Assembly: GCA_049510095.1 (NCBI GenBank)
Contig: JBEKZG010000001.1
Location: 1 to 39,653, forward strand
Source of the DNA: Terracidiphilus sp.
GTDB lineage: Bacteria; Acidobacteriota; Terriglobia; Terriglobales; Acidobacteriaceae
DNA: 39,653 bases
Reading direction: 5' to 3'
A program made the translations under genes and the position numbers. The notes beneath the pieces are model-generated. The model saw nothing but the letters and a program-made list of their open reading frames with translations. It searched no databases and was not told where the DNA came from. Below, piece by piece: positions 3,236 to 13,270 of the stretch. How positions within the stretch are numbered: the stretch's first letter is position 1; every line of letters begins with the position of its first letter.

Positions 3236-3844
3236 TCAGGCGTGGGATGAAATGCCTACTTCAAGGGCCCGCGATTCAGCAGGCGCGGTGATTTGCAGGA
3301 GTTCGTCGAACAAGGCGCGATAATGCAGGATCGCGTTTCGCAATTCTTCCGTGGTGGCCTCGTTTCTTGCGGCGCGCAGCGTGACATCGTGCGCGGTGCG
3401 GTAGGGGCCGACGAAGTTGCAGTGGTGGACGGAGATATCGGCAGCGCGCTCTTCGAAGACGGCAGTGGGGTAGCCGCGGGTTTGAAGGATGGAATTGATA
3501 AGCTCATCCGCTTCAACCACAGCTCCCCTGGGTTGATCGACGAATCTCGACTGCACGATGTCCCATTCAGCGATGAAGCGAGCGCGCTCCGAGGGCGTGA
3601 GTTCTCGAATTTTGAGGTGATTGATGCGCCGGACGCGGGTCACCATGGCTGCCTCGGCGCGCCTCCGGGTACCTTCGTTGCGAAGGATCAGATCGTACTC
3701 GGTTCCAAATCGACTGCGCAGTATTTCTGTTCTCTTTCTGCGCTGGTACACGGCGATGGCGATTGCAACGACGATCAGGATCAATGCAACCACCAGCCAA
3801 GTGATTACGGTGGGACTCGTAAATGTGGTTGAGTCAAAATGCAT
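3236..3844 (-). CDS. Hypothetical membrane-anchored protein, 202 aa
   Basis: GGAGG RBS before ATG 3844; single N-terminal TM followed by a basic stretch, LRSRFGTEYD, FVDQPRGAV.EAD and TEELR.A..HYR.LF segments. The upstream extension in the ORF track looks non-coding. Confidence 0.8.
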   Translation of the reverse strand: MHFDSTTFTSPTVITWLVVALILIVVAIAIAVYQRRKRTEILRSRFGTEYDLILRNEGTRRRAEAAMVTRVRRINHLKIRELTPSERARFIAEWDIVQSRFVDQPRGAVVEADELINSILQTRGYPTAVFEERAADISVHHCNFVGPYRTAHDVTLRAARNEATTEELRNAILHYRALFDELLQITAPAESRALEVGISSHA

Positions 3845-4269: not shown

Positions 4270-5454
4270 TTATAGCTGCGCGGGAACTGCCTGCGTGCCG
4301 AGAAGCGGTGTGTGACCGTTGCATTCGCCGATCTGACAGAGGTTCAGAAGGGAGCCGGCAGGTTTGGAATTGGGTCCTTTCCAATCGCCATAGGCGGGTT
4401 CGCAGGTGGCGCATTGAGGGGCCGGCAATGCGACGGCAGCTTCCGGTCTCCATGTGAGGCTTCTTTCGGAGAGAATTTGCTCCCACGGCACGACGATGCA
4501 ATCCCACTGGGGAAGGACCTCGGCGTATGCGGCTCGGCACAGGCGGTCGAAATCGTCATAGCCCCTTGCGAAGTAGCGTTCGGTTAACTCGGAAAGAGAG
4601 CCGTCCCGGATGTTGCCGAGCGCGTAGCGATGGCTCAATGTGGGTACTTCCGGAAGCACGGTTCCGTCTTCCCGGATGACGAGTTTCTTGATTTCCTTTG
4701 TGACGCCGCGGTGACAGCCCGTTCCGTTGCACACGAAGGCTCCGCAGGGATGTTGCAGGAGAAACTTCTTCTTTGCGCCGATTACCTGGCATTTGAGATT
4801 GCGGATTTCAGGCCGGTTTGCGAGATCGGTCAGTTTGAGAATCAACCTGTTCAACTGCGCGAAGCTCAGGCAGGAGTCCGTGATTTGCGTGCCGCGGCCG
4901 AGATTCAAGAGAGGCTGTGCGAAGAATTCGCCGGCACCGACATTCGCGGCCCAGTGAACGAGAAAGTCGAGCGAATCGAGATTCTTTTGAGAGATGCTGC
5001 CGATGATGGTGAGGGGAATGCCCGCGTCCACGGCATGGCGAGCGCCGCGCTCAGAGGAGCGAAACGCCCCCGGTAAATTCCTGAAGCGATCATGGAACTC
5101 CGGCTGGCCATCGATGCTGATGTTGATGCGGAGACCCAACTTCCGGAACTGCTCGGCCTTTCCGGCGGTGAGCAACGTACCATTGGTGCAGAGAGTGGTT
5201 TGGACATTGGGTAGATTGGCCGCGGCCTCGAGAACTTGATCGAGACCGCGATAAAGCAGGGGTTCGCCACCGGTAACAACGATGGTTCCTATGCCAAGCC
5301 TGGGGCACTCTTCGATTGCCTGAAGCACAAGCTCCAATGGCAACTGCTCCGTCCGCCGAGGAGAGCCTTCCATGTAACAGTGAAGGCACTCCAGGTTACA
5401 GCGGCCAAGCAGGTGAATCATTAACAGGCCAGGCGGATGATTTGCAGTTGCCAT
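4270..5454 (-). CDS. Radical SAM protein with atypical SPASM/twitch-like C-terminal domain, 394 aa
   Basis: C19-x3-C23-x2-C26 (CNLECLHC), TGGEPLL, TNG, ISIDG...HD..R..G.F, GRG; C-terminal CGAFVCNGTGC, LVIREDGTVLPE, LGNI and CATC. Confidence 0.93.
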   Translation of the reverse strand: MATANHPPGLLMIHLLGRCNLECLHCYMEGSPRRTEQLPLELVLQAIEECPRLGIGTIVVTGGEPLLYRGLDQVLEAAANLPNVQTTLCTNGTLLTAGKAEQFRKLGLRINISIDGQPEFHDRFRNLPGAFRSSERGARHAVDAGIPLTIIGSISQKNLDSLDFLVHWAANVGAGEFFAQPLLNLGRGTQITDSCLSFAQLNRLILKLTDLANRPEIRNLKCQVIGAKKKFLLQHPCGAFVCNGTGCHRGVTKEIKKLVIREDGTVLPEVPTLSHRYALGNIRDGSLSELTERYFARGYDDFDRLCRAAYAEVLPQWDCIVVPWEQILSERSLTWRPEAAVALPAPQCATCEPAYGDWKGPNSKPAGSLLNLCQIGECNGHTPLLGTQAVPAQL

Positions 5455-5520
5455 ACGAAAACCCCCAGGGGATGGGTTCCAATCAGGCGCGGCGGGAATC
5501 GAGCGGGGAAGCCGGTCTTA

Positions 5521-5553
5521 TTGGGATGGGTTGGAATGGGTTGGGATGGGTTG
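5521..5553. repeat. 10-bp tandem repeat TTGGRATGGG x3.3
   Basis: TTGGGATGGG TTGGAATGGG TTGGGATGGG TTG read directly; a partial copy lies at 5469-5478. Confidence 0.9.
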
Positions 5554-5556
5554 AAT

Positions 5557-5895
5557 CTAACCTTCAGTTTCGGTGGCGATCTGGCGGAGACCCACGGATT
5601 CAGCGTTGTCCAGGGAGACAACTCCCCAGTGCGGTGGGCGCGGGACGGTCCCGTAGCCGGGCTCGCCATCGCCGACAACAAAGTAATACTCGACCGATGC
5701 GCCGATGCCCGCTCCCAGGCCCTCTTGCTTCAGCCCGGCTTCAGCAACATGCTGGACAAGCTGCGAAGAGATCTGGGCAGCCGCCTGCTTTGCAACAGTA
5801 TCGGTGAACTCAAGAAGCCTTCCGCTGGCAATCACCGATCGCAACGCTTCGTGGTTGACGCTCAGTGTGAGATTTGCGATTTGATTATTTCCCAT
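5557..5895 (-). CDS. Small hypothetical protein, 112 aa; candidate precursor/substrate of the adjacent radical SAM enzyme
   Basis: Strong RBS GAGGAGG 8 nt before ATG 5895, protein-like composition, co-oriented 102 bp upstream of the rSAM gene. The precursor role is inference. Confidence 0.78.
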   Translation of the reverse strand: MGNNQIANLTLSVNHEALRSVIASGRLLEFTDTVAKQAAAQISSQLVQHVAEAGLKQEGLGAGIGASVEYYFVVGDGEPGYGTVPRPPHWGVVSLDNAESVGLRQIATETEG

Positions 5896-5995
5896 GGTGT
5901 GAACCTCCTCATGCATCTCTATATCGCTGCGCGGGGAGTTTTTCCTTTGCCGATTGGAATTGAATTCTGAATCTCTTTATGAATCTCGTGTGTAA

Positions 5996-6456
5996 GAACC
6001 CGTCTAAGAACTAAGTCGATCGGCGGAGGAGCAAATGCGCGAAGGCGATGTAAACCATGGAATCTGCCGGGGTGTGTCGCAATTCGCAGTCTTTGCTAAG
6101 TCGGGGTGACCAGTTGAGCCAAGCGAAGCTACGTTCGACGATCCAGCGCTTCGGTAGAACCTTGAACAGATGCCGGCCGAGTGAACAAGGACCGCCGGCA
6201 AATTGCCTTGCGTGTCTACAGCGATATGCCTCTTGCGCCCCTCGATCCTCTTGCCCGCGTCATACACGCGCCGCAGCGGATACTTGCGCGGACGCCCGCC
6301 CGCATCGCGGCTCCCCCAGAGCGGCTTCAGCAACGGCTCCAGCTCAACCCACCGCGCGCCGGTCAAATCGCCCGGATACATGCGCTTAACCTACCGCCAT
6401 CGCCAACCCGCGCCTATATAAGTCTTGGTTCCTCGTGTTAGTTTTTAGACAGGTTC
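5996..6456 (-). mobile_element. Internally deleted IS5-family (IS1031-like) element, 461 bp, with 19-bp TIRs and TAA target duplication
   Basis: Left end GAACCCGTCTAAGAACTAA (5996-6014) vs reverse complement of right end GAACCTGTCTAAAAACTAA (6438-6456), 17/19 identical; TAA at 5993-5995 and 6457-6459; transposase fragments inside. Confidence 0.92.
6011..6381 (-). pseudogene. IS5-family transposase remnant (three joined fragments, frameshifted)
   Basis: N-terminal YPGDLT...W..LEPLL...GGRPRK joined to [20 protein letters not shown], then in another frame [28 protein letters not shown]...LLRRST-stop. Confidence 0.9.
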
Positions 6457-6792
6457 TAAGGGAGTGCGGTGACCGTCCTAAGAAGAACCCCGGCGGGATC
6501 TGCGGGTTACGCCCAGGTGGGCGGCGGGAGCGCAAACGCTGATCCCATCGGATGAGAGCGTTGAGCCGGGCATCCCGTGGGTCAGCAGGAAATCGCCAGG
6601 GGAGTGTGCTCGCCGGCTTCGCCGGGTCCGTAGCTCCGGACCTGATGGTGCGGCGTGAAGATCCCTGCTTTGCCGATGGCGTGTTTCTATTGCGGGAAAA
6701 ACATGGTTAGCGTCATTGAAACGCGCGGAGCCCGCAAGCGCTTCAGCGCCCCGGGACGGCCGGTAATGGAGATATGCGATACTCGGAAAGGC

Positions 6793-8943: not shown

Positions 8944-10167
8944 TTACGGCGTAACCGATTGGGTGGCGTGGTTGCCATGCGGAATGGTGGCAAGCGCGGC
9001 AGGCGCGGCGCCAGTGGGGTAAGGCGTCGAGATGGTTTGAGTCAGAGCGCCTGTGTTTGGGTTCAGCTCGAATCCGGAGACGGAATCACCGAGGTGGTTG
9101 GCGGTGTAGACGTAACGGCCGAGCGACTGATCGATCAGGATGGCCACAGGCTGCGTATCCGTGCTGTTGGTCTGACTGCCAACGGTGTTTACGGCCGCGG
9201 ATGGAGTGCCTGTGCTCAGGGCGATCGTGTACGCCGAAACGCTTGAGTCAAGCGCGTTGGAGACATAAATGTAAAGGCCGCGCGGGTCGATGGTGATGGC
9301 CGAGGGCTCATTGCCTGTCTTGAAGGGGCCGTTGACCATGAAATCCAGCACGTTGCCGTTCTGAACCGTGTAGCCGATCAGCTCGTTGGAGGCGAAGTCA
9401 GTGACATAGACAAAGCGGTTGGTGGGGTCGGAGGTGATGGCGGTGGGCTTGACGCCGGCTTTCCATGGGCTACCCGTGGCCGGGGTAAGCGCGCCTCCCG
9501 AGCCGACGGTGAAGCCGAAGACCCATCCGGGGTTAGCATTGCTGGAAACGCTGCCGCCAGGGTTGTAGGCGGATTGATCGTAGGCCGTGACAAAGACGGC
9601 ATTGCCGTTTGCCAGTACATTGACACCGGTGGGGACGATGGTGTCTGCAGCGAACCCAGGGCTCACGGTGGCGAGGGTCAGCGGGATGGTGGCAACCGGG
9701 GAGCCGATGGCGCCCGACGAGAGTGGGTATGCCGTGAGTGTGGCCGAGCTAGTACCGGAGACTACGTACAGATAGCTGCTGGCGGGACTGACCGCGATGG
9801 AGACAGGAGTAGCGGCGGTTGTGACGGTGTCTTTGTCAGTCAACACGCCGCTTCCGGAGACGGCGAAGTGAACCACCGAGTTATTTCCCTGGTTGGCGAC
9901 GTAAAGGTCTGTATAGTCGGGGGCGACAGCCATCGAAACCGGATTGACTCCTCCGGAGGGGACGTTCGCCTGTCCGGGCCGCAATGCGCCCGATCCTTCG
10001 TCCAAATCGTAAGTTTGGATCTGTCCGGCGCTGCCTGCTCCCGAACCCGAGGAACTGGCGACGAAGAGATAGTCGATGGTGACGATATTGCAGGACGTCA
10101 AGAGGGCGGCCACGACAAGGCCGATGATAGAGACCAGGAAAAGCTGGCTCAATTTGCTGAACTTCAT
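8944..10167 (-). CDS. Lactonase-family (cycloisomerase-2-like) beta-propeller lipoprotein, 407 aa
   Basis: Signal peptide with lipobox LTSC; repeated blades G..P.AI..DP...Y/FVYV.N. Confidence 0.85.
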   Translation of the reverse strand: MKFSKLSQLFLVSIIGLVVAALLTSCNIVTIDYLFVASSSGSGAGSAGQIQTYDLDEGSGALRPGQANVPSGGVNPVSMAVAPDYTDLYVANQGNNSVVHFAVSGSGVLTDKDTVTTAATPVSIAVSPASSYLYVVSGTSSATLTAYPLSSGAIGSPVATIPLTLATVSPGFAADTIVPTGVNVLANGNAVFVTAYDQSAYNPGGSVSSNANPGWVFGFTVGSGGALTPATGSPWKAGVKPTAITSDPTNRFVYVTDFASNELIGYTVQNGNVLDFMVNGPFKTGNEPSAITIDPRGLYIYVSNALDSSVSAYTIALSTGTPSAAVNTVGSQTNSTDTQPVAILIDQSLGRYVYTANHLGDSVSGFELNPNTGALTQTISTPYPTGAAPAALATIPHGNHATQSVTP

Positions 10168-10288
10168 GCGCTTCCTTCGTTGTGGGCCATCAAGCTGAAG
10201 CCCAGAGAAAACTGATTAGGTTGCCCCGTATGTATTGTAGAAGCCAGGTACGGGGTGTTTCGATTGCGTTCACGGCTGCGGAGAGTTC

Positions 10289-11662
10289 TCAATTCTGTTT
10301 GCTGCTTTGGGTTACGCCGTGCGGGATGGCAGCGACGGCGGTGGGAAAAGCATTGACGGTGTAAGGCGAATTCTGGGAATTGACAAGCGTGCCCGCGGTG
10401 CTGCTGAGTTCGAAGCCGGAGACGGTGCCGTTGATTCCGCTCCCCAGATAGTTGGCGGTAAAGAGAAAGTGGTTGGTCGAGGGATCGATACCGATGGCGA
10501 CAGGCTCCGAGCCGGCGGCATAAGTGCCGAGACTGATAAGCTGGCCGCTGCTCATGGAATAGGCCTGAACGGTTGAATCCAGCGCATTGGCCACGTAAAG
10601 GTAAGGATACTCAGGATCGGCCACGATTGCCGAGGGCTGGTTTCCGGCCGGGAACGGGCTGCCGCCGACTTCGGTCAAGAGGCCAGTTGAGCCGACAGAA
10701 TACCCAAGAACGGCGCCATTCGCGGCGTTGGTGACGTAGACGTAGCTGGTGCTGTTGGCAGTGGCACTGGCGATCGCAGAAGGACAGGTTCCTAACACAT
10801 AGGGGGCGTTGAGGAAGGCGTTTGTGCAGGTCCCCGTGGCGAAGGGACCGCCAGCCAGGGGCGCGCCGCTGTTGAGCGGGCAGAGTGTACCCGCCGGAAA
10901 CTGGTTTACCGGAATTGGGCCGCTTGCTGGGCAGGGTCCGCCGGTCAGTGTAGAAGAGGTGGTCGGAGGGGCAACCGAGAAGCCAAATAGGTAGTTGGCG
11001 CTCGAAGTCGCGTCGTAAGCGGCCACGTACAGGAAAGCACCGGAGGCGAGAACATTGATTCCGGTGGGTTCAATGACGTCGTTCGGCTTGCCGGGCAGAC
11101 TCAATGGCCAGTAGGTCAAGCTTCCATTGGGCACCGGATTCGACCCGATCGAATCGCTCGGAGGCGTGCTGGATGAGGAAGTGATGGGATACACAGCGAT
11201 AGAGCCTGAGCACGGGGCCGCGGTGGAGCAGATGGGCAGCGGCTGGTAGGTATCCACGACGAAAAGGTTCTTTCCATTTACCGCCACGGCGACCGGGTAG
11301 ATTCCCGGCGTGTTGGTGGTGTTCTGCGGATAGAGCTTGCCGTCGTTGCCGATGATGAACTGGACGATGGAATTGTCATCCTGATTGACCACATAAAGGT
11401 TTGTATTGTCAGAGGAGACGGCTTCGGCAACCGGGTTGCGCCCGCCGGAGGGAAACGGCGAGGTGGGAATGTGGCGCATAGCCCCGGATTCGGAGTTGAT
11501 TTCGAGGACATCCATCTCGCCGTAGTTGTTGGTTCCGGCAGCCTTGGAACTGGCCACAAAGACAAAATCCACGGTGAGCGTGCCACAGGCGGTCACAAGT
11601 CCAGCTACCAGGAGACTGGCCGCGGAGACCAGCAGCAGCTGGCTCGATTTGTTGAACTTCAT
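10289..11662 (-). CDS. Lactonase-family beta-propeller lipoprotein, 457 aa
   Basis: MKFNK start, lipobox VTAC, blade repeats (GGRNPVAEAV, GNQPSAIVADP..YLYVAN). Confidence 0.85.
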   Translation of the reverse strand: MKFNKSSQLLLVSAASLLVAGLVTACGTLTVDFVFVASSKAAGTNNYGEMDVLEINSESGAMRHIPTSPFPSGGRNPVAEAVSSDNTNLYVVNQDDNSIVQFIIGNDGKLYPQNTTNTPGIYPVAVAVNGKNLFVVDTYQPLPICSTAAPCSGSIAVYPITSSSSTPPSDSIGSNPVPNGSLTYWPLSLPGKPNDVIEPTGINVLASGAFLYVAAYDATSSANYLFGFSVAPPTTSSTLTGGPCPASGPIPVNQFPAGTLCPLNSGAPLAGGPFATGTCTNAFLNAPYVLGTCPSAIASATANSTSYVYVTNAANGAVLGYSVGSTGLLTEVGGSPFPAGNQPSAIVADPEYPYLYVANALDSTVQAYSMSSGQLISLGTYAAGSEPVAIGIDPSTNHFLFTANYLGSGINGTVSGFELSSTAGTLVNSQNSPYTVNAFPTAVAAIPHGVTQSSKQN

Positions 11663-11860
11663 GCGCATCTTTCGTCAGCGGGCCGGAACTCTGGGCCCGA
11701 ATATCAGGTTTGGAATCGAATCCCAAGGCGTGGATGAATGAAGCCGCGCCCGGCATTCGGCTGCGTTCTTAGAGAATCCGGTTTCGTCAGAAACCTGAAG
11801 CGGGAGCCAGCCAGCCGGCCGGCGCCCGCTCCACATTTACAAAGAGCTATCGCCGACTGT

Positions 11861-13270
11861 TTATCCGGTACGTCCATCCATCAGGCACCATGTAGCCGGG
11901 CCCTCGAGCGAATAGGTTGTAGTCACACGCAAATTGTTGAGCACGCCCGAGTTCGGGTCAACCACCCGGCCGTTCACAGCGGAATCGTTGAAGTCGGCCG
12001 AATAAATGAACTGGTCGGAGGGATCTTCGACCAGGCACTGTGGGCCCGCACCGGAGCCGAACGGTTCACCGGCGATGAAACTGAGCTGGTAAGCGGGGGC
12101 GGTAGTCAGGAAGTAACCGGCGATTCCGCTCTGTGCATTAGCCCCCTGAGCATTATTTCCCTGGTTGGCCACATAGATGAACTTGCCCTTGGACTCAACG
12201 AGCAGGTAGATCGGATTGGCGAGGGTCGGGTCGTCAGGGACGACCCCGCCGGGCTCAGCCTGCAATGCCCCGTTGGTTCCCACGGTGTACGGCAGGATCT
12301 GGCTGGCCGCGGTGGTTGGGATGCCGTCCGAGTTGTTGTAAGTGAAGGGCTGATTGTCGAGAACGTAAATGGTGCCGGAACCGGCCACGATGGCCGTGGC
12401 CGAGGGCACGCCGCTGGGGCTGCCGTCGTTGAGGACCTGGGAGCTGTTCTGGTTGATCGTCAACTGACCGCTGCCGCCATTCAGGGTATAGGGGAATACC
12501 GTATTGCCTCCCGTATACGGATAGCTGGCTGGCTGGTTGGTTGCGCTCAAGGTGAGGAAGTACCCGCCATTCTCCACGAAATCGACGGGGCGGGCCGGGA
12601 CGGGGAAGTAGGCCAGCGCCGCGCCATTTGCCGCGGTTACCTGGGCATTCACAATGAGCTGAAGGCGGCCGGTCGTCGAGTTGATGGAGAAGGCGGTAAT
12701 GTCGCCGCAGCTAGTGACATTGGAACCAAGCGCCAGAGCGCAGCCCTGGCCCGGATTGGCCGGTGTCGCCGGGTTCTTGCCGTCAGCGCCGATGGCGTCG
12801 TGATCGAGCACGTAAAGGTAATTACCTGAGGGATCGGCGATGAGGCGGAAAGGGTTGAGGCCCTGCGTGTAAAAGATCTCCTGCTGGGTAAGGATACCGT
12901 TGCCGCCCACAGCGAACTGGGTGATGTTGGAACCCCCGCAGGGGTCCGCGGTGGTGCAGTCACCGTTGCCCGCGGCATTTACGCCCCGGTTTAGAACATA
13001 AAGGAAGCGGCTGCCGGTGAGCAGTACGGCGCGAACCGGATTTGCGCCGCCGGAAGAGATGGGCAGTCCGTCGACTGTAATGAGCTTGCCGGTATTGTGG
13101 TCGATCTTGAATCCGCTGATGATTCCGTTGCCACCGGACTGGGCCGTAACCGTACCCGTCACATACAAAAAGCCGACTGTATAATCCTCAACGCAAGACG
13201 TAACGCTGAGGACGATGCCAGCAGAAATGGCGCTCAGCAGGAGGGCCTTGCCGAATTTCGTAAACTTCAT
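11861..13270 (-). CDS. Lactonase-family beta-propeller lipoprotein, 469 aa
   Basis: AAGGA RBS, MKFTK start, lipobox VTSC, blade repeats (GGANPVRAV, NPFRLIADP.GNYLYV, GPQCLVEDP). Confidence 0.85.
   Translation of the reverse strand: MKFTKFGKALLLSAISAGIVLSVTSCVEDYTVGFLYVTGTVTAQSGGNGIISGFKIDHNTGKLITVDGLPISSGGANPVRAVLLTGSRFLYVLNRGVNAAGNGDCTTADPCGGSNITQFAVGGNGILTQQEIFYTQGLNPFRLIADPSGNYLYVLDHDAIGADGKNPATPANPGQGCALALGSNVTSCGDITAFSINSTTGRLQLIVNAQVTAANGAALAYFPVPARPVDFVENGGYFLTLSATNQPASYPYTGGNTVFPYTLNGGSGQLTINQNSSQVLNDGSPSGVPSATAIVAGSGTIYVLDNQPFTYNNSDGIPTTAASQILPYTVGTNGALQAEPGGVVPDDPTLANPIYLLVESKGKFIYVANQGNNAQGANAQSGIAGYFLTTAPAYQLSFIAGEPFGSGAGPQCLVEDPSDQFIYSADFNDSAVNGRVVDPNSGVLNNLRVTTTYSLEGPATWCLMDGRTG

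What the first reader, a model, noticed from the sequence alone, without database searches (positions are those of the whole stretch)
4270..5895. Candidate undescribed RiPP-type system: 112-aa protein plus atypical radical SAM/SPASM enzyme
Seen: a small gene with a strong RBS lies 102 bp upstream of a co-oriented radical SAM gene, and the pair is separated from neighbours by a 425-bp gap on one side and an IS remnant on the other. Established: rSAM-SPASM enzymes (PqqE, MftC, AlbA, triceptide maturases, spliceases) commonly modify a peptide encoded next to them. Seen: the small protein has no Cys, which excludes sactipeptide/ranthipeptide thioether chemistry, and I see no PqqA, MftA, Nif11 or NHLP signature. 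No RRE/PqqD gene, peptidase or exporter is adjacent, and the enzyme has no N-terminal extension to hold an RRE. Inference: a minimal two-gene peptide/protein-modifying system that I cannot assign to a known class.
Basis: partly seen in the sequence, partly recalled or inferred. Interest (0 to 1): 0.85.

Follow-up and report, generated by a model that had tools for sequence, protein, structure and literature searches.

The report
Undescribed two-gene radical peptide-modifying cassette
A small protein gene and a radical-SAM enzyme gene travel together as a bare two-gene cassette in bacteria of several phyla, and the enzyme likely modifies a conserved aromatic-x-threonine motif of the small protein, most likely by closing it into a three-residue ring, a reaction that is untested and that I found in no family library or paper searched.

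Summary
Observation confirmed; the precursor/maturase reading is much strengthened, the chemistry remains untested. The 112-aa gene is under purifying selection (dN/dS about 0.17 overall, 0.03 in residues 1-54). Homologues lie directly upstream of this enzyme subfamily in 72 of 86 other loci; the other 14 are cut short or fragmentary. In the reverse search all 5 genomes with the small gene have the enzyme beside it. No third gene is conserved. The small protein has a conserved helical N-terminal half and one motif, acidic-[F/Y]-x-T-x-P (F/Y 200 of 205, Gly 182, Thr 175). Phe and Tyr swap at least six times on the enzyme tree, which argues against tyramine splicing. The enzyme is not a true SPASM protein: the second cluster motif is gone, and C237, C247, H248, E269 and C306 are invariant. 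It reaches no NCBIfam cut-off and is not NirJ/Ahb. Best mechanism: an aryl-to-C-beta three-residue cyclophane (about 0.4). A sister enzyme family without the cysteine loop has its own small partners with x-G-[I/T]-P motifs, which keeps epimerisation or glycine-centred chemistry alive. Verdict: new variant of a known kind, directly testable.

The parts
5557..5895 (-). Small protein gene, 112 aa (P0001), predicted precursor
   Evidence: homologues; dN/dS
5904..5909 (-). Shine-Dalgarno AGGAGG, 8 nt before the ATG at 5895 (favours this start over the in-frame ATG at 5916)
5734..5895 (-). Residues 1-54: conserved N-terminal half, predicted helices 15-23 and 27-55; inferred leader/recognition region
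   Evidence: AlphaFold2 pLDDT 87-92 over residues 11-40; G25 209 of 211, L27 196 of 211, E29 186 of 213; dN/dS about 0.03
5632..5670 (-). Residues 76-88: acidic-[F/Y]-x-T-x-P-x-x-P motif (Y81-G82-T83 here); inferred modification site
   Evidence: F/Y 200 of 205, G 182 of 205, T 175 of 205, P85 184 of 203, P88 181 of 195
5455..5556 (.). 102-bp spacer with three copies of a 10-nt repeat at 5521-5553
4270..5454 (-). Radical SAM enzyme gene, 394 aa (P0002); residues 351-394 low-confidence and not conserved
   Evidence: Pfam Radical_SAM 82 bits; model pLDDT 83.7; closest fold SkfB, Z 28.0, rmsd 3.0, 280 aligned
5377..5400 (-). CxxxCxxC motif (C19, C23, C26) for the SAM-binding [4Fe-4S] cluster
   Evidence: 50 of 50 paired enzymes
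4537..4746 (-). Remodelled twitch-like region: C237, C247, H248, E269, C306 invariant, C242 in 44 of 50; inferred single auxiliary metal site
5994..6460 (-). Internally deleted IS5-family element about 100 bp upstream of the small gene; not part of the cassette
   Evidence: terminal repeats and 91-96% copies on contigs C575 and C412; no match to it in L004

Best explanation
The two genes form a conserved, stand-alone cassette in which the radical SAM enzyme likely binds the predicted helical N-terminal half of the small protein and would cross-link the ring of Tyr81 (Phe in most relatives) to the beta-carbon of Thr83, giving a predicted three-residue cyclophane (-2 Da). Shown: both genes are real, obligately linked, co-diverging, without a third gene, and the motif is aromatic-x-Thr. 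Inferred from radical SAM chemistry: reductive SAM cleavage at the C19/C23/C26 cluster gives a 5'-deoxyadenosyl radical. Inferred (about 0.8): the small protein is the substrate and residues 76-88 are the site; with no RRE, the enzyme itself reads the long leader. Inferred (about half of that): the radical takes the C-beta hydrogen of residue 83, the carbon radical adds to the ring of residue 81, and one auxiliary Fe-S centre (C237, C247, C306 plus C242, H248 or E269) accepts the electron. Unknown: whether a housekeeping protease releases a Pro-rich core or the protein stays whole; the lack of any linked peptidase or exporter suggests an intracellular product.
For: Linkage 72 of 86 loci, none intact with room and lacking the gene; reverse search 5 of 5. 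Pairwise identities of 50 gene pairs correlate (Spearman 0.86, 0 of 2000 permutations). Two tandem small genes before one enzyme in L049 and L067 and a two-unit protein P0245 fit a substrate better than a fixed subunit. Motif: aromatic 200 of 205, middle residue variable (Gly 182; Ala, Leu, Tyr, Arg, Ile and others), third residue Thr 175, Asn 10, Val 6, Ser 5; triceptides are defined by an aromatic-to-C-beta link on aromatic-X2-X3, with Asn, Ser and Ala among known third residues (PMC11499958; PMC11002830). Phe/Tyr needs 7 changes on the enzyme tree, at least 6 forced by well-supported branches, with the invariant enzyme residues unchanged, so the ring and not the phenol OH is conserved. The Cys loop that could bind an electron-accepting cluster is kept in this family and absent from the sister family, whose partners lack the strict aromatic. 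Top three of four fold matches include the peptide maturases SkfB (Z 28.0) and SuiB (24.5).
Against: No modification has been observed. The enzyme is not a member of the triceptide maturase family TIGR04269 (no match at E 1e-20), and no triceptide family is among the 25 best NCBIfam models shown; similarity to ChlB covers only residues 11-143. I saw no Thr third residue among the triceptide examples in the passages read. Gly is 89% conserved here and present in all 16 motifs read by eye in the 8 sister partners, where the preceding residue is aromatic in only 7 of 16, so the shared ancestral chemistry may centre on Gly or the following residue. Six of 205 aligned motifs have Gly, Trp, Phe or Tyr third. 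The second-ranked sequence match and third-ranked fold match is BlsE, a small-molecule enzyme. Co-divergence of adjacent genes shows co-inheritance, not substrate use. Cluster ligands are assigned by alignment only; no model coordinates were available.
Confidence: 0.4

Rival explanations
1. The enzyme is a peptide epimerase: it abstracts the C-alpha hydrogen of the aromatic residue or of Thr83, and an enzyme cysteine returns a hydrogen on the other face, giving a D-residue with no mass change.
For: The 8 sister enzymes lack the Cys loop, as proteusin epimerases lack an auxiliary cluster, while EpeE has one twitch cluster and a Cys hydrogen donor (PMC13012085 passages). Those epimerases act on Ile and Val, and the residue after Gly is beta-branched here (Thr 175, Val 6 of 205) and in 13 of 16 sister motifs. 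C306 is invariant here.
Against: Does not explain the near-invariant aromatic two residues before Thr. The C306 equivalent is present in only 4 of 8 sister enzymes. Similarity to EpeE covers only residues 10-132; fold Z 19.3 against 28.0 for SkfB.
Confidence: 0.2
2. The small protein is a bound partner or activator, not the substrate, and the pair acts on a small molecule or another cellular protein.
For: The N-terminal half is more conserved than the motif region (dN/dS 0.03 against 0.06) and predicted to fold. No peptidase, exporter or tailoring gene is conserved. BlsE ranks high among structural matches.
Against: One short, Pro-flanked motif in a region predicted to be unstructured, followed by a tail of variable length, is a precursor layout. 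Duplicated small genes with one enzyme (L049, L067). No pathway gene that would supply or use a small molecule is linked in any set of loci.
Confidence: 0.2
3. The chemistry is centred on the glycine or the backbone at aromatic-Gly (splicease-like excision, a C-alpha cross-link, or oxidative cleavage), shared with the sister family.
For: The window copy reads G-Y-G, which fits the XYG site of spliceases (PMC10849128 passage). Gly is present in 16 of 16 sister motifs and 182 of 205 family motifs. TIGR03913 and TIGR04103 give the longest NCBIfam alignments, reaching residues 311 and 292.
Against: Phe 111 against Tyr 89 at the aromatic position and 23 of 205 non-Gly; repeated Phe/Tyr swaps. Scores 71.9 against 591.75 and 61.5 against 725, where a true member scores 848. 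The second-cluster motif is missing.
Confidence: 0.15
4. The enzyme is a NirJ/Ahb-type tetrapyrrole or other cofactor enzyme and the small gene is a bystander.
For: AhbD, NirJ and AhbC models are the top NCBIfam scores and some database names say 'Fe-coproporphyrin III synthase'.
Against: Scores near 100 bits against cut-offs of 500-650, covering only the first 200-250 residues; no heme genes among 81 flanking proteins scanned; separate branch from two Ahb-like proteins; obligate two-way linkage to the small gene.
Confidence: 0.03

Closest known systems
Triceptides (three-residue cyclophane RiPPs; XncB, OscB, MscB, HaaB, HtkB, ChlB)
   Same: Aromatic-X2-X3 motif with free middle residue; Phe and Tyr both used; Cys-free precursor beside a radical SAM enzyme; ChlB is solved bound to its precursor's leader (PDB 9gm3 title).
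   Different: Enzyme outside TIGR04269 and far from ChlB in sequence; no second-cluster motif; Thr as third residue; one motif behind a 55-residue helical region; no linked peptidase or transporter.
SkfB (twitch-domain sactipeptide maturase, PDB 6efn, TIGR04403)
   Same: Closest solved structure by sequence (E 1.5e-29) and fold (Z 28.0); single-cluster C-terminal domain.
   Different: SkfB has about 100 extra N-terminal residues (match starts at its residue 113) and a Cys-containing substrate; score 67.8 against cut-off 300; the partner here has no Cys.
Spliceotides (PlpX/PlpY, TIGR04103; TIGR03913 type)
   Same: The window copy has a Tyr-Gly site; enzyme aligns over 314 columns with a TIGR03913 member.
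   Different: Phe in most relatives, Gly replaceable, no Nif11 leader or RRE partner, SPASM cysteines lost, scores far under cut-off.
Radical SAM peptide epimerases (EpeE; PoyD/OspD)
   Same: One or no auxiliary cluster; preference for beta-branched residues.
   Different: No sequence similarity beyond the core barrel for EpeE; PoyD/OspD were not compared; strict aromatic requirement unexplained.

Membership tests
Triceptides | Aromatic-X2-X3 motif in the precursor | tested here: met
   F/Y at position 1 in 200 of 205, variable X2, X3 Thr/Asn/Val/Ser in 196 of 205
Triceptides | Aryl-to-C-beta cross-link actually formed | not testable with these tools
   needs co-expression, MS/MS and NMR
Triceptides | Maturase in family TIGR04269 (FxsB/MscB type) | tested here: not met
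   no match at E 1e-20 in the own genome
Triceptides | Maturase in another triceptide family (XncB, OscB, HaaB, HtkB types) | tested here: inconclusive
   none among the 25 best of 75 NCBIfam models shown, and the best model overall is far below cut-off; families without a model cannot be excluded
SPASM-domain radical SAM enzymes | C-terminal domain with ligands for two auxiliary clusters (the CX2CX5CX3C motif is recalled; two clusters per PMC10114670 passage) | tested here: not met
   Pfam SPASM 17.5 bits under cut-off 21.5; only the first Cys of the second motif kept; C-terminal domain alone hits no NCBIfam model better than E 0.09
Twitch-domain radical SAM enzymes | One auxiliary Fe-S cluster | tested here: inconclusive
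   three invariant Cys plus His and Glu; fold closest to SkfB; binding not shown
Spliceotides | X-Tyr-Gly target site | tested here: not met
   present in the window copy but Phe 111 / Tyr 89 and 23 of 205 non-Gly across the family
Spliceotides | Enzyme in TIGR04103 or TIGR03913 | tested here: not met
   61.5 of 725 and 71.9 of 591.75 bits
Sactipeptides / ranthipeptides | Donor Cys in the precursor core | tested here: not met
   0 Cys in P0001; none in 159 of 162 homologues
NirJ / AhbC / AhbD | Family score and heme-pathway context | tested here: not met
   100.8 of 500 bits; no heme genes among neighbours
Radical SAM peptide epimerases | Conserved Cys hydrogen donor facing the substrate | tested here: inconclusive
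   C306 invariant, position relative to substrate unknown
Radical SAM peptide epimerases | D-residue in the product | not testable with these tools
   needs D2O labelling or Marfey analysis
RRE-dependent RiPPs | Fused or separate RRE/PqqD domain | tested here: not met
   barrel starts at residue 9; no PqqD hit on the enzyme or among 81 flanking proteins

The most novel reading that the evidence does not exclude
This cassette and its sister family are one undescribed superfamily of two-gene modules in which a radical SAM enzyme edits a small intracellular protein that is never cut or exported. This branch makes the first Phe/Tyr-to-Thr cyclophane using a Glu/His-remodelled cluster, while sister enzymes with no auxiliary cluster ligands do different chemistry on x-Gly-[Ile/Thr]-Pro loops. 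The pair of families would be a natural experiment on what the auxiliary cluster is for.
Probability: 0.25. Interest if true: 0.85.

Novelty: new variant of a known kind. Interest (0 to 1): 0.66.

Why it matters
Radical SAM peptide maturases are a rich source of new bond-forming chemistry, and the mining routes described in the review passages read use RREs, SPASM annotation, transporters or ORFs of 20-100 aa. This cassette has no RRE, no SPASM call, no transporter and a partner over 100 aa, so such screens would likely miss it. It needs only two genes to test, occurs in cultured strains (Paraburkholderia mimosarum WP_414218872.1/WP_414218870.1; Mycolicibacterium sp. CBMA 213 plasmid WP_155921909.1/WP_155921908.1), and comes with a sister family lacking the auxiliary-cluster cysteines. 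That lets one ask directly whether the auxiliary cluster decides between oxidative cross-linking and redox-neutral chemistry, a role the review PMC10114670 calls unsettled.

Tried and rejected
Complex prediction of enzyme residues 1-352 with the small protein gave no answer (score 0.02, mark 0.32); not used either way. Fold search of the small-protein model: best Z 4.0, none at 5 or more, uninformative. ESM Atlas suggested HK97-gp10-like phage proteins for P0001 (score 0.95, family on 11-27% of members); not supported, as 0 of 69 members hit that Pfam family and 0 of 90 hit any PHROG. Atlas search with a sister small protein: best 0.84, no family. The two kinds of small protein show no profile similarity (hhalign probability 0.7), so their motif resemblance is by eye only; L101 is the one protein carrying both motif types. 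No enzyme match in annotated phages; viral contigs gave only generic radical SAM hits to the sister profile. No sigma-70 promoter and no excess of terminators. RNA: contigs from metatranscriptomes of three studies cover parts of both genes, some at 99-100% identity, but the runs were picked with this stretch, contigs cannot show strand or level, and one run covers 24 of 30 bins of the 20-kb control; taken as no more than compatible with expression. Literature: ten searches for family motifs, host names, accessions and topic words found no description; motif and accession searches in the supplements of PMC9062424 (2 files) and PMC10288494 (1 file) found nothing, though I did not check that these files list precursor sequences. 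The library lacks most subscription papers, including several primary triceptide, splicease and atlas papers cited in the reviews, so prior description is not excluded. A recalled name ('origamin') matched no relevant paper. Earlier findings of this scan: nothing by sequence or relatives. In one search locus L080 was flagged unlinked; this is a script artefact, since the family enzyme there is cut by the contig start. The careful tree did not finish; the quick tree was used.

Full report
Observation. The window has two co-oriented genes on the minus strand: a 112-aa ORF (5895..5557) with AGGAGG 8 nt before its ATG, and 102 bp further a 394-aa radical SAM ORF (5454..4270). The next gene starts 425 bp downstream. 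Upstream, at 5994-6460, lies an internally deleted IS5-family element with 20-bp terminal repeats and 91-96% copies elsewhere in the genome; the closest relative, locus L004, has no match to it.

The small gene is real. Against L004 it shows dS 0.41 and dN 0.068; residues 1-54 give dN/dS about 0.03, residues 75-91 about 0.06 and the tail about 0.18 (one pair, small counts). Searches returned 46, 132 and 94 cluster representatives homologues. No member reaches a Pfam, NCBIfam or PHROG family.

Linkage. Of 86 other loci collected through the enzyme, 72 have a homologue of the small gene directly upstream on the same strand. Thirteen have under 450 bp before the estimated enzyme start or hold only an enzyme fragment; two of these (L056, L057) have about 370 bp without a hit and are borderline. 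The last (L080) is cut at the contig start. The loci are not independent, as some are near-duplicates. In the reverse direction the small-protein profile hit 3 of 301 genomes of one phylum and 2 of 281 of the window's own phylum, including the window's genome, each within a few hundred bases of the family enzyme (against 104, 20). Pairwise identities of 50 gene pairs correlate at Spearman 0.86. Clustering all other ORFs found no recurring partner beyond generic kinases and sensor proteins, and Pfam on 81 flanking proteins, chosen from 128 candidates, gave unrelated functions, with a few unlinked proteases or transporters and no PqqD or heme gene. The cassette is sporadic: 2 of 401 genomes in the own phylum, 0 of 33 others in the own family. 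Named hosts include Isosphaeraceae and Bryobacteraceae MAGs, Paraburkholderia mimosarum, Acetobacteraceae, Pyrinomonadaceae and Blastocatellia, and a Mycolicibacterium plasmid. It behaves as a mobile two-gene module.

Anatomy of the small protein. Among 213 homologues at under 80% identity, the N-terminal half carries a conserved G-R-L-x-E-F motif and is predicted to form two helices (pLDDT 87-92 for residues 11-40). A variable linker follows, then one motif: acidic residues, Phe or Tyr (200 of 205; Phe 111, Tyr 89), Gly (182), Thr (175; Asn 10, Val 6, Ser 5), x, Pro (184 of 203), then a Pro-rich stretch and a tail of variable length (8 rows were truncated before the motif and left out of the 205). 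This region has low model confidence. Loci L049 and L067 have two such genes before one enzyme, and P0245 has two leader-motif units in one chain. This is the layout of a leader-core precursor.

Anatomy of the enzyme. The barrel starts at residue 9, so no RRE is fused. The best NCBIfam score is 100.8 bits against a cut-off of 500, and none of the models shown comes near its cut-off. Ahb-like controls score 441-467 on AhbC and a true TIGR03913 member scores 848. The closest solved structures are SkfB (Z 28.0), SuiB (24.5), BlsE (23.9) and anSME (23.3). The C-terminal domain is not SPASM: aligned with the TIGR03913 member, C247 matches a cluster-I Cys, Glu269 replaces the next Cys, and only the first Cys of the second-cluster motif survives as C306. 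In 50 paired enzymes H235, C237, C247, H248, R249, E254, E269 and C306 are invariant, C242 is Cys in 44, and a C-terminal Cys at 348 is present in 41. I infer one remodelled auxiliary site; this is not shown.

A sister family. Locus L080 carries a second cassette in tandem. Its enzyme aligns with this family over 323 columns (27% identity) but lacks the Cys loop. Searches found eight such enzymes; they form one branch (support 98) next to this family (support 99) and apart from three outgroups (quick tree, long branches flagged). Every one lies directly after its own 100-120-aa gene with two x-Gly-[Ile/Thr/other]-Pro-like motifs. By eye, Gly is present in all 16 motifs, the next residue is Ile, Thr or Val in 13, and the preceding residue is aromatic in 7. 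L101's partner has one motif resembling this family's acidic-x-G-T core and one of the sister type. The two partner types show no profile similarity. None of the four sister enzymes with scores shown, nor L080's, reaches an NCBIfam cut-off.

Mechanism. That the small protein is the substrate I put at about 0.8. For the chemistry, the aromatic residue is the most conserved motif position, the middle residue can vary, and the third nearly always has a C-beta hydrogen. That is the triceptide pattern: an aromatic-to-C-beta link on aromatic-X2-X3 (PMC11499958, parts 1-2 of 3 read; PMC11002830, passages). Phe and Tyr exchange at least six times on the enzyme tree, which disfavours any reaction needing the phenol, including tyramine excision at XYG (PMC10849128, passage). 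An oxidative coupling needs an electron acceptor, and the candidate cluster ligands are kept in the family with the strict aromatic and lost in the family without it. I therefore favour a Tyr/Phe-to-Thr cyclophane (0.4 overall). Against it, the enzyme is outside TIGR04269, Thr as third residue has no precedent in what I read, and the sister motifs point to Gly or the beta-branched residue as the ancestral target. Epimerisation (0.2; PMC13012085 passages), a non-substrate partner role (0.2) and Gly-centred backbone chemistry (0.15) remain open. Cofactor biosynthesis is nearly excluded (0.03).

Comparison and novelty. It works most plausibly like a triceptide system but fails or leaves open the membership tests on the enzyme side, and it fails those for spliceotides, sacti/ranthipeptides, NirJ/Ahb and RRE-dependent classes. 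Ten library searches and two supplement searches found no description; from PMC10288494 I saw the outline, one section and the supplement search, from PMC10114670 passages, from PMC9062424 only the supplement search. Subscription papers and their supplements, which I could not see, may list this family as an unstudied cluster. I class it as a new variant of a known kind: an unnamed precursor family and enzyme subfamily, without RRE, peptidase or exporter, with an unusual auxiliary site.

Verdict. Real, conserved, apparently undescribed and testable with two genes. Interest 0.66; 0.85 if it proves to be a superfamily that edits uncut intracellular proteins with new chemistry (probability about 0.25).

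Noticed in passing
L080:744-2128; L088:1040-2502; L089:1147-2517; L090:1381-2780; L095:1140-2541; L100:1507-3100; L101:997-2484; L108:970-2520: Sister two-gene cassettes: radical SAM enzymes without the auxiliary Cys loop, each after a 100-120-aa protein with two x-Gly-[Ile/Thr]-Pro-like motifs; no family name. An identical pair is on record as WP_041975744.1/WP_041975745.1. Deserves its own study.
   Followed up: partly
L089:1147-1482 and L090:2463-2780: In these two sister partners the first motif is flanked by two Cys (C-x-Y-G-I-C), unlike the others.
   Followed up: no
P0280, P0288, P0289, P0291, P0301, P0312: A distant subgroup of the small protein has one or more Cys right after the aromatic-G-T/V motif in place of the Pro-rich stretch; genomic context not seen.
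   Followed up: no
P0194 and P0331: Two homologues carry about 105-115 extra N-terminal residues of similar sequence (PF01060 precomputed on P0194) fused to the small protein.
   Followed up: no
P0176: A homologue of the small protein is labelled as from a Candidatus Hodarchaeota MAG; binning and context not checked.
   Followed up: no
window 5994-6460: Internally deleted IS5-family element about 100 bp upstream of the small gene; may have displaced or supplied the promoter. Longer copies on contigs C575 and C412.
   Followed up: partly
window 5521-5553: Three tandem copies of a 10-nt G-rich repeat in the spacer between the two genes.
   Followed up: no
window 8944-13270: Three tandem minus-strand genes (407, 459, 469 aa) with similar N-termini that look like secreted beta-propeller lipoproteins; RNA contigs pile up near their 5' ends. 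Identity is by eye.
   Followed up: no
L096:619-2743: A TIGR03913 splicease-type enzyme (848 bits) with three tandem 60-64-aa precursors (two Tyr-Gly, one Tyr-Ala) in a Bryobacteraceae genome that also has this cassette; used as an outgroup.
   Followed up: partly
window 3236-3844: Downstream gene for a predicted membrane-anchored protein with no Pfam family at cut-off; syntenic only in L004, so not part of the cassette.
   Followed up: partly
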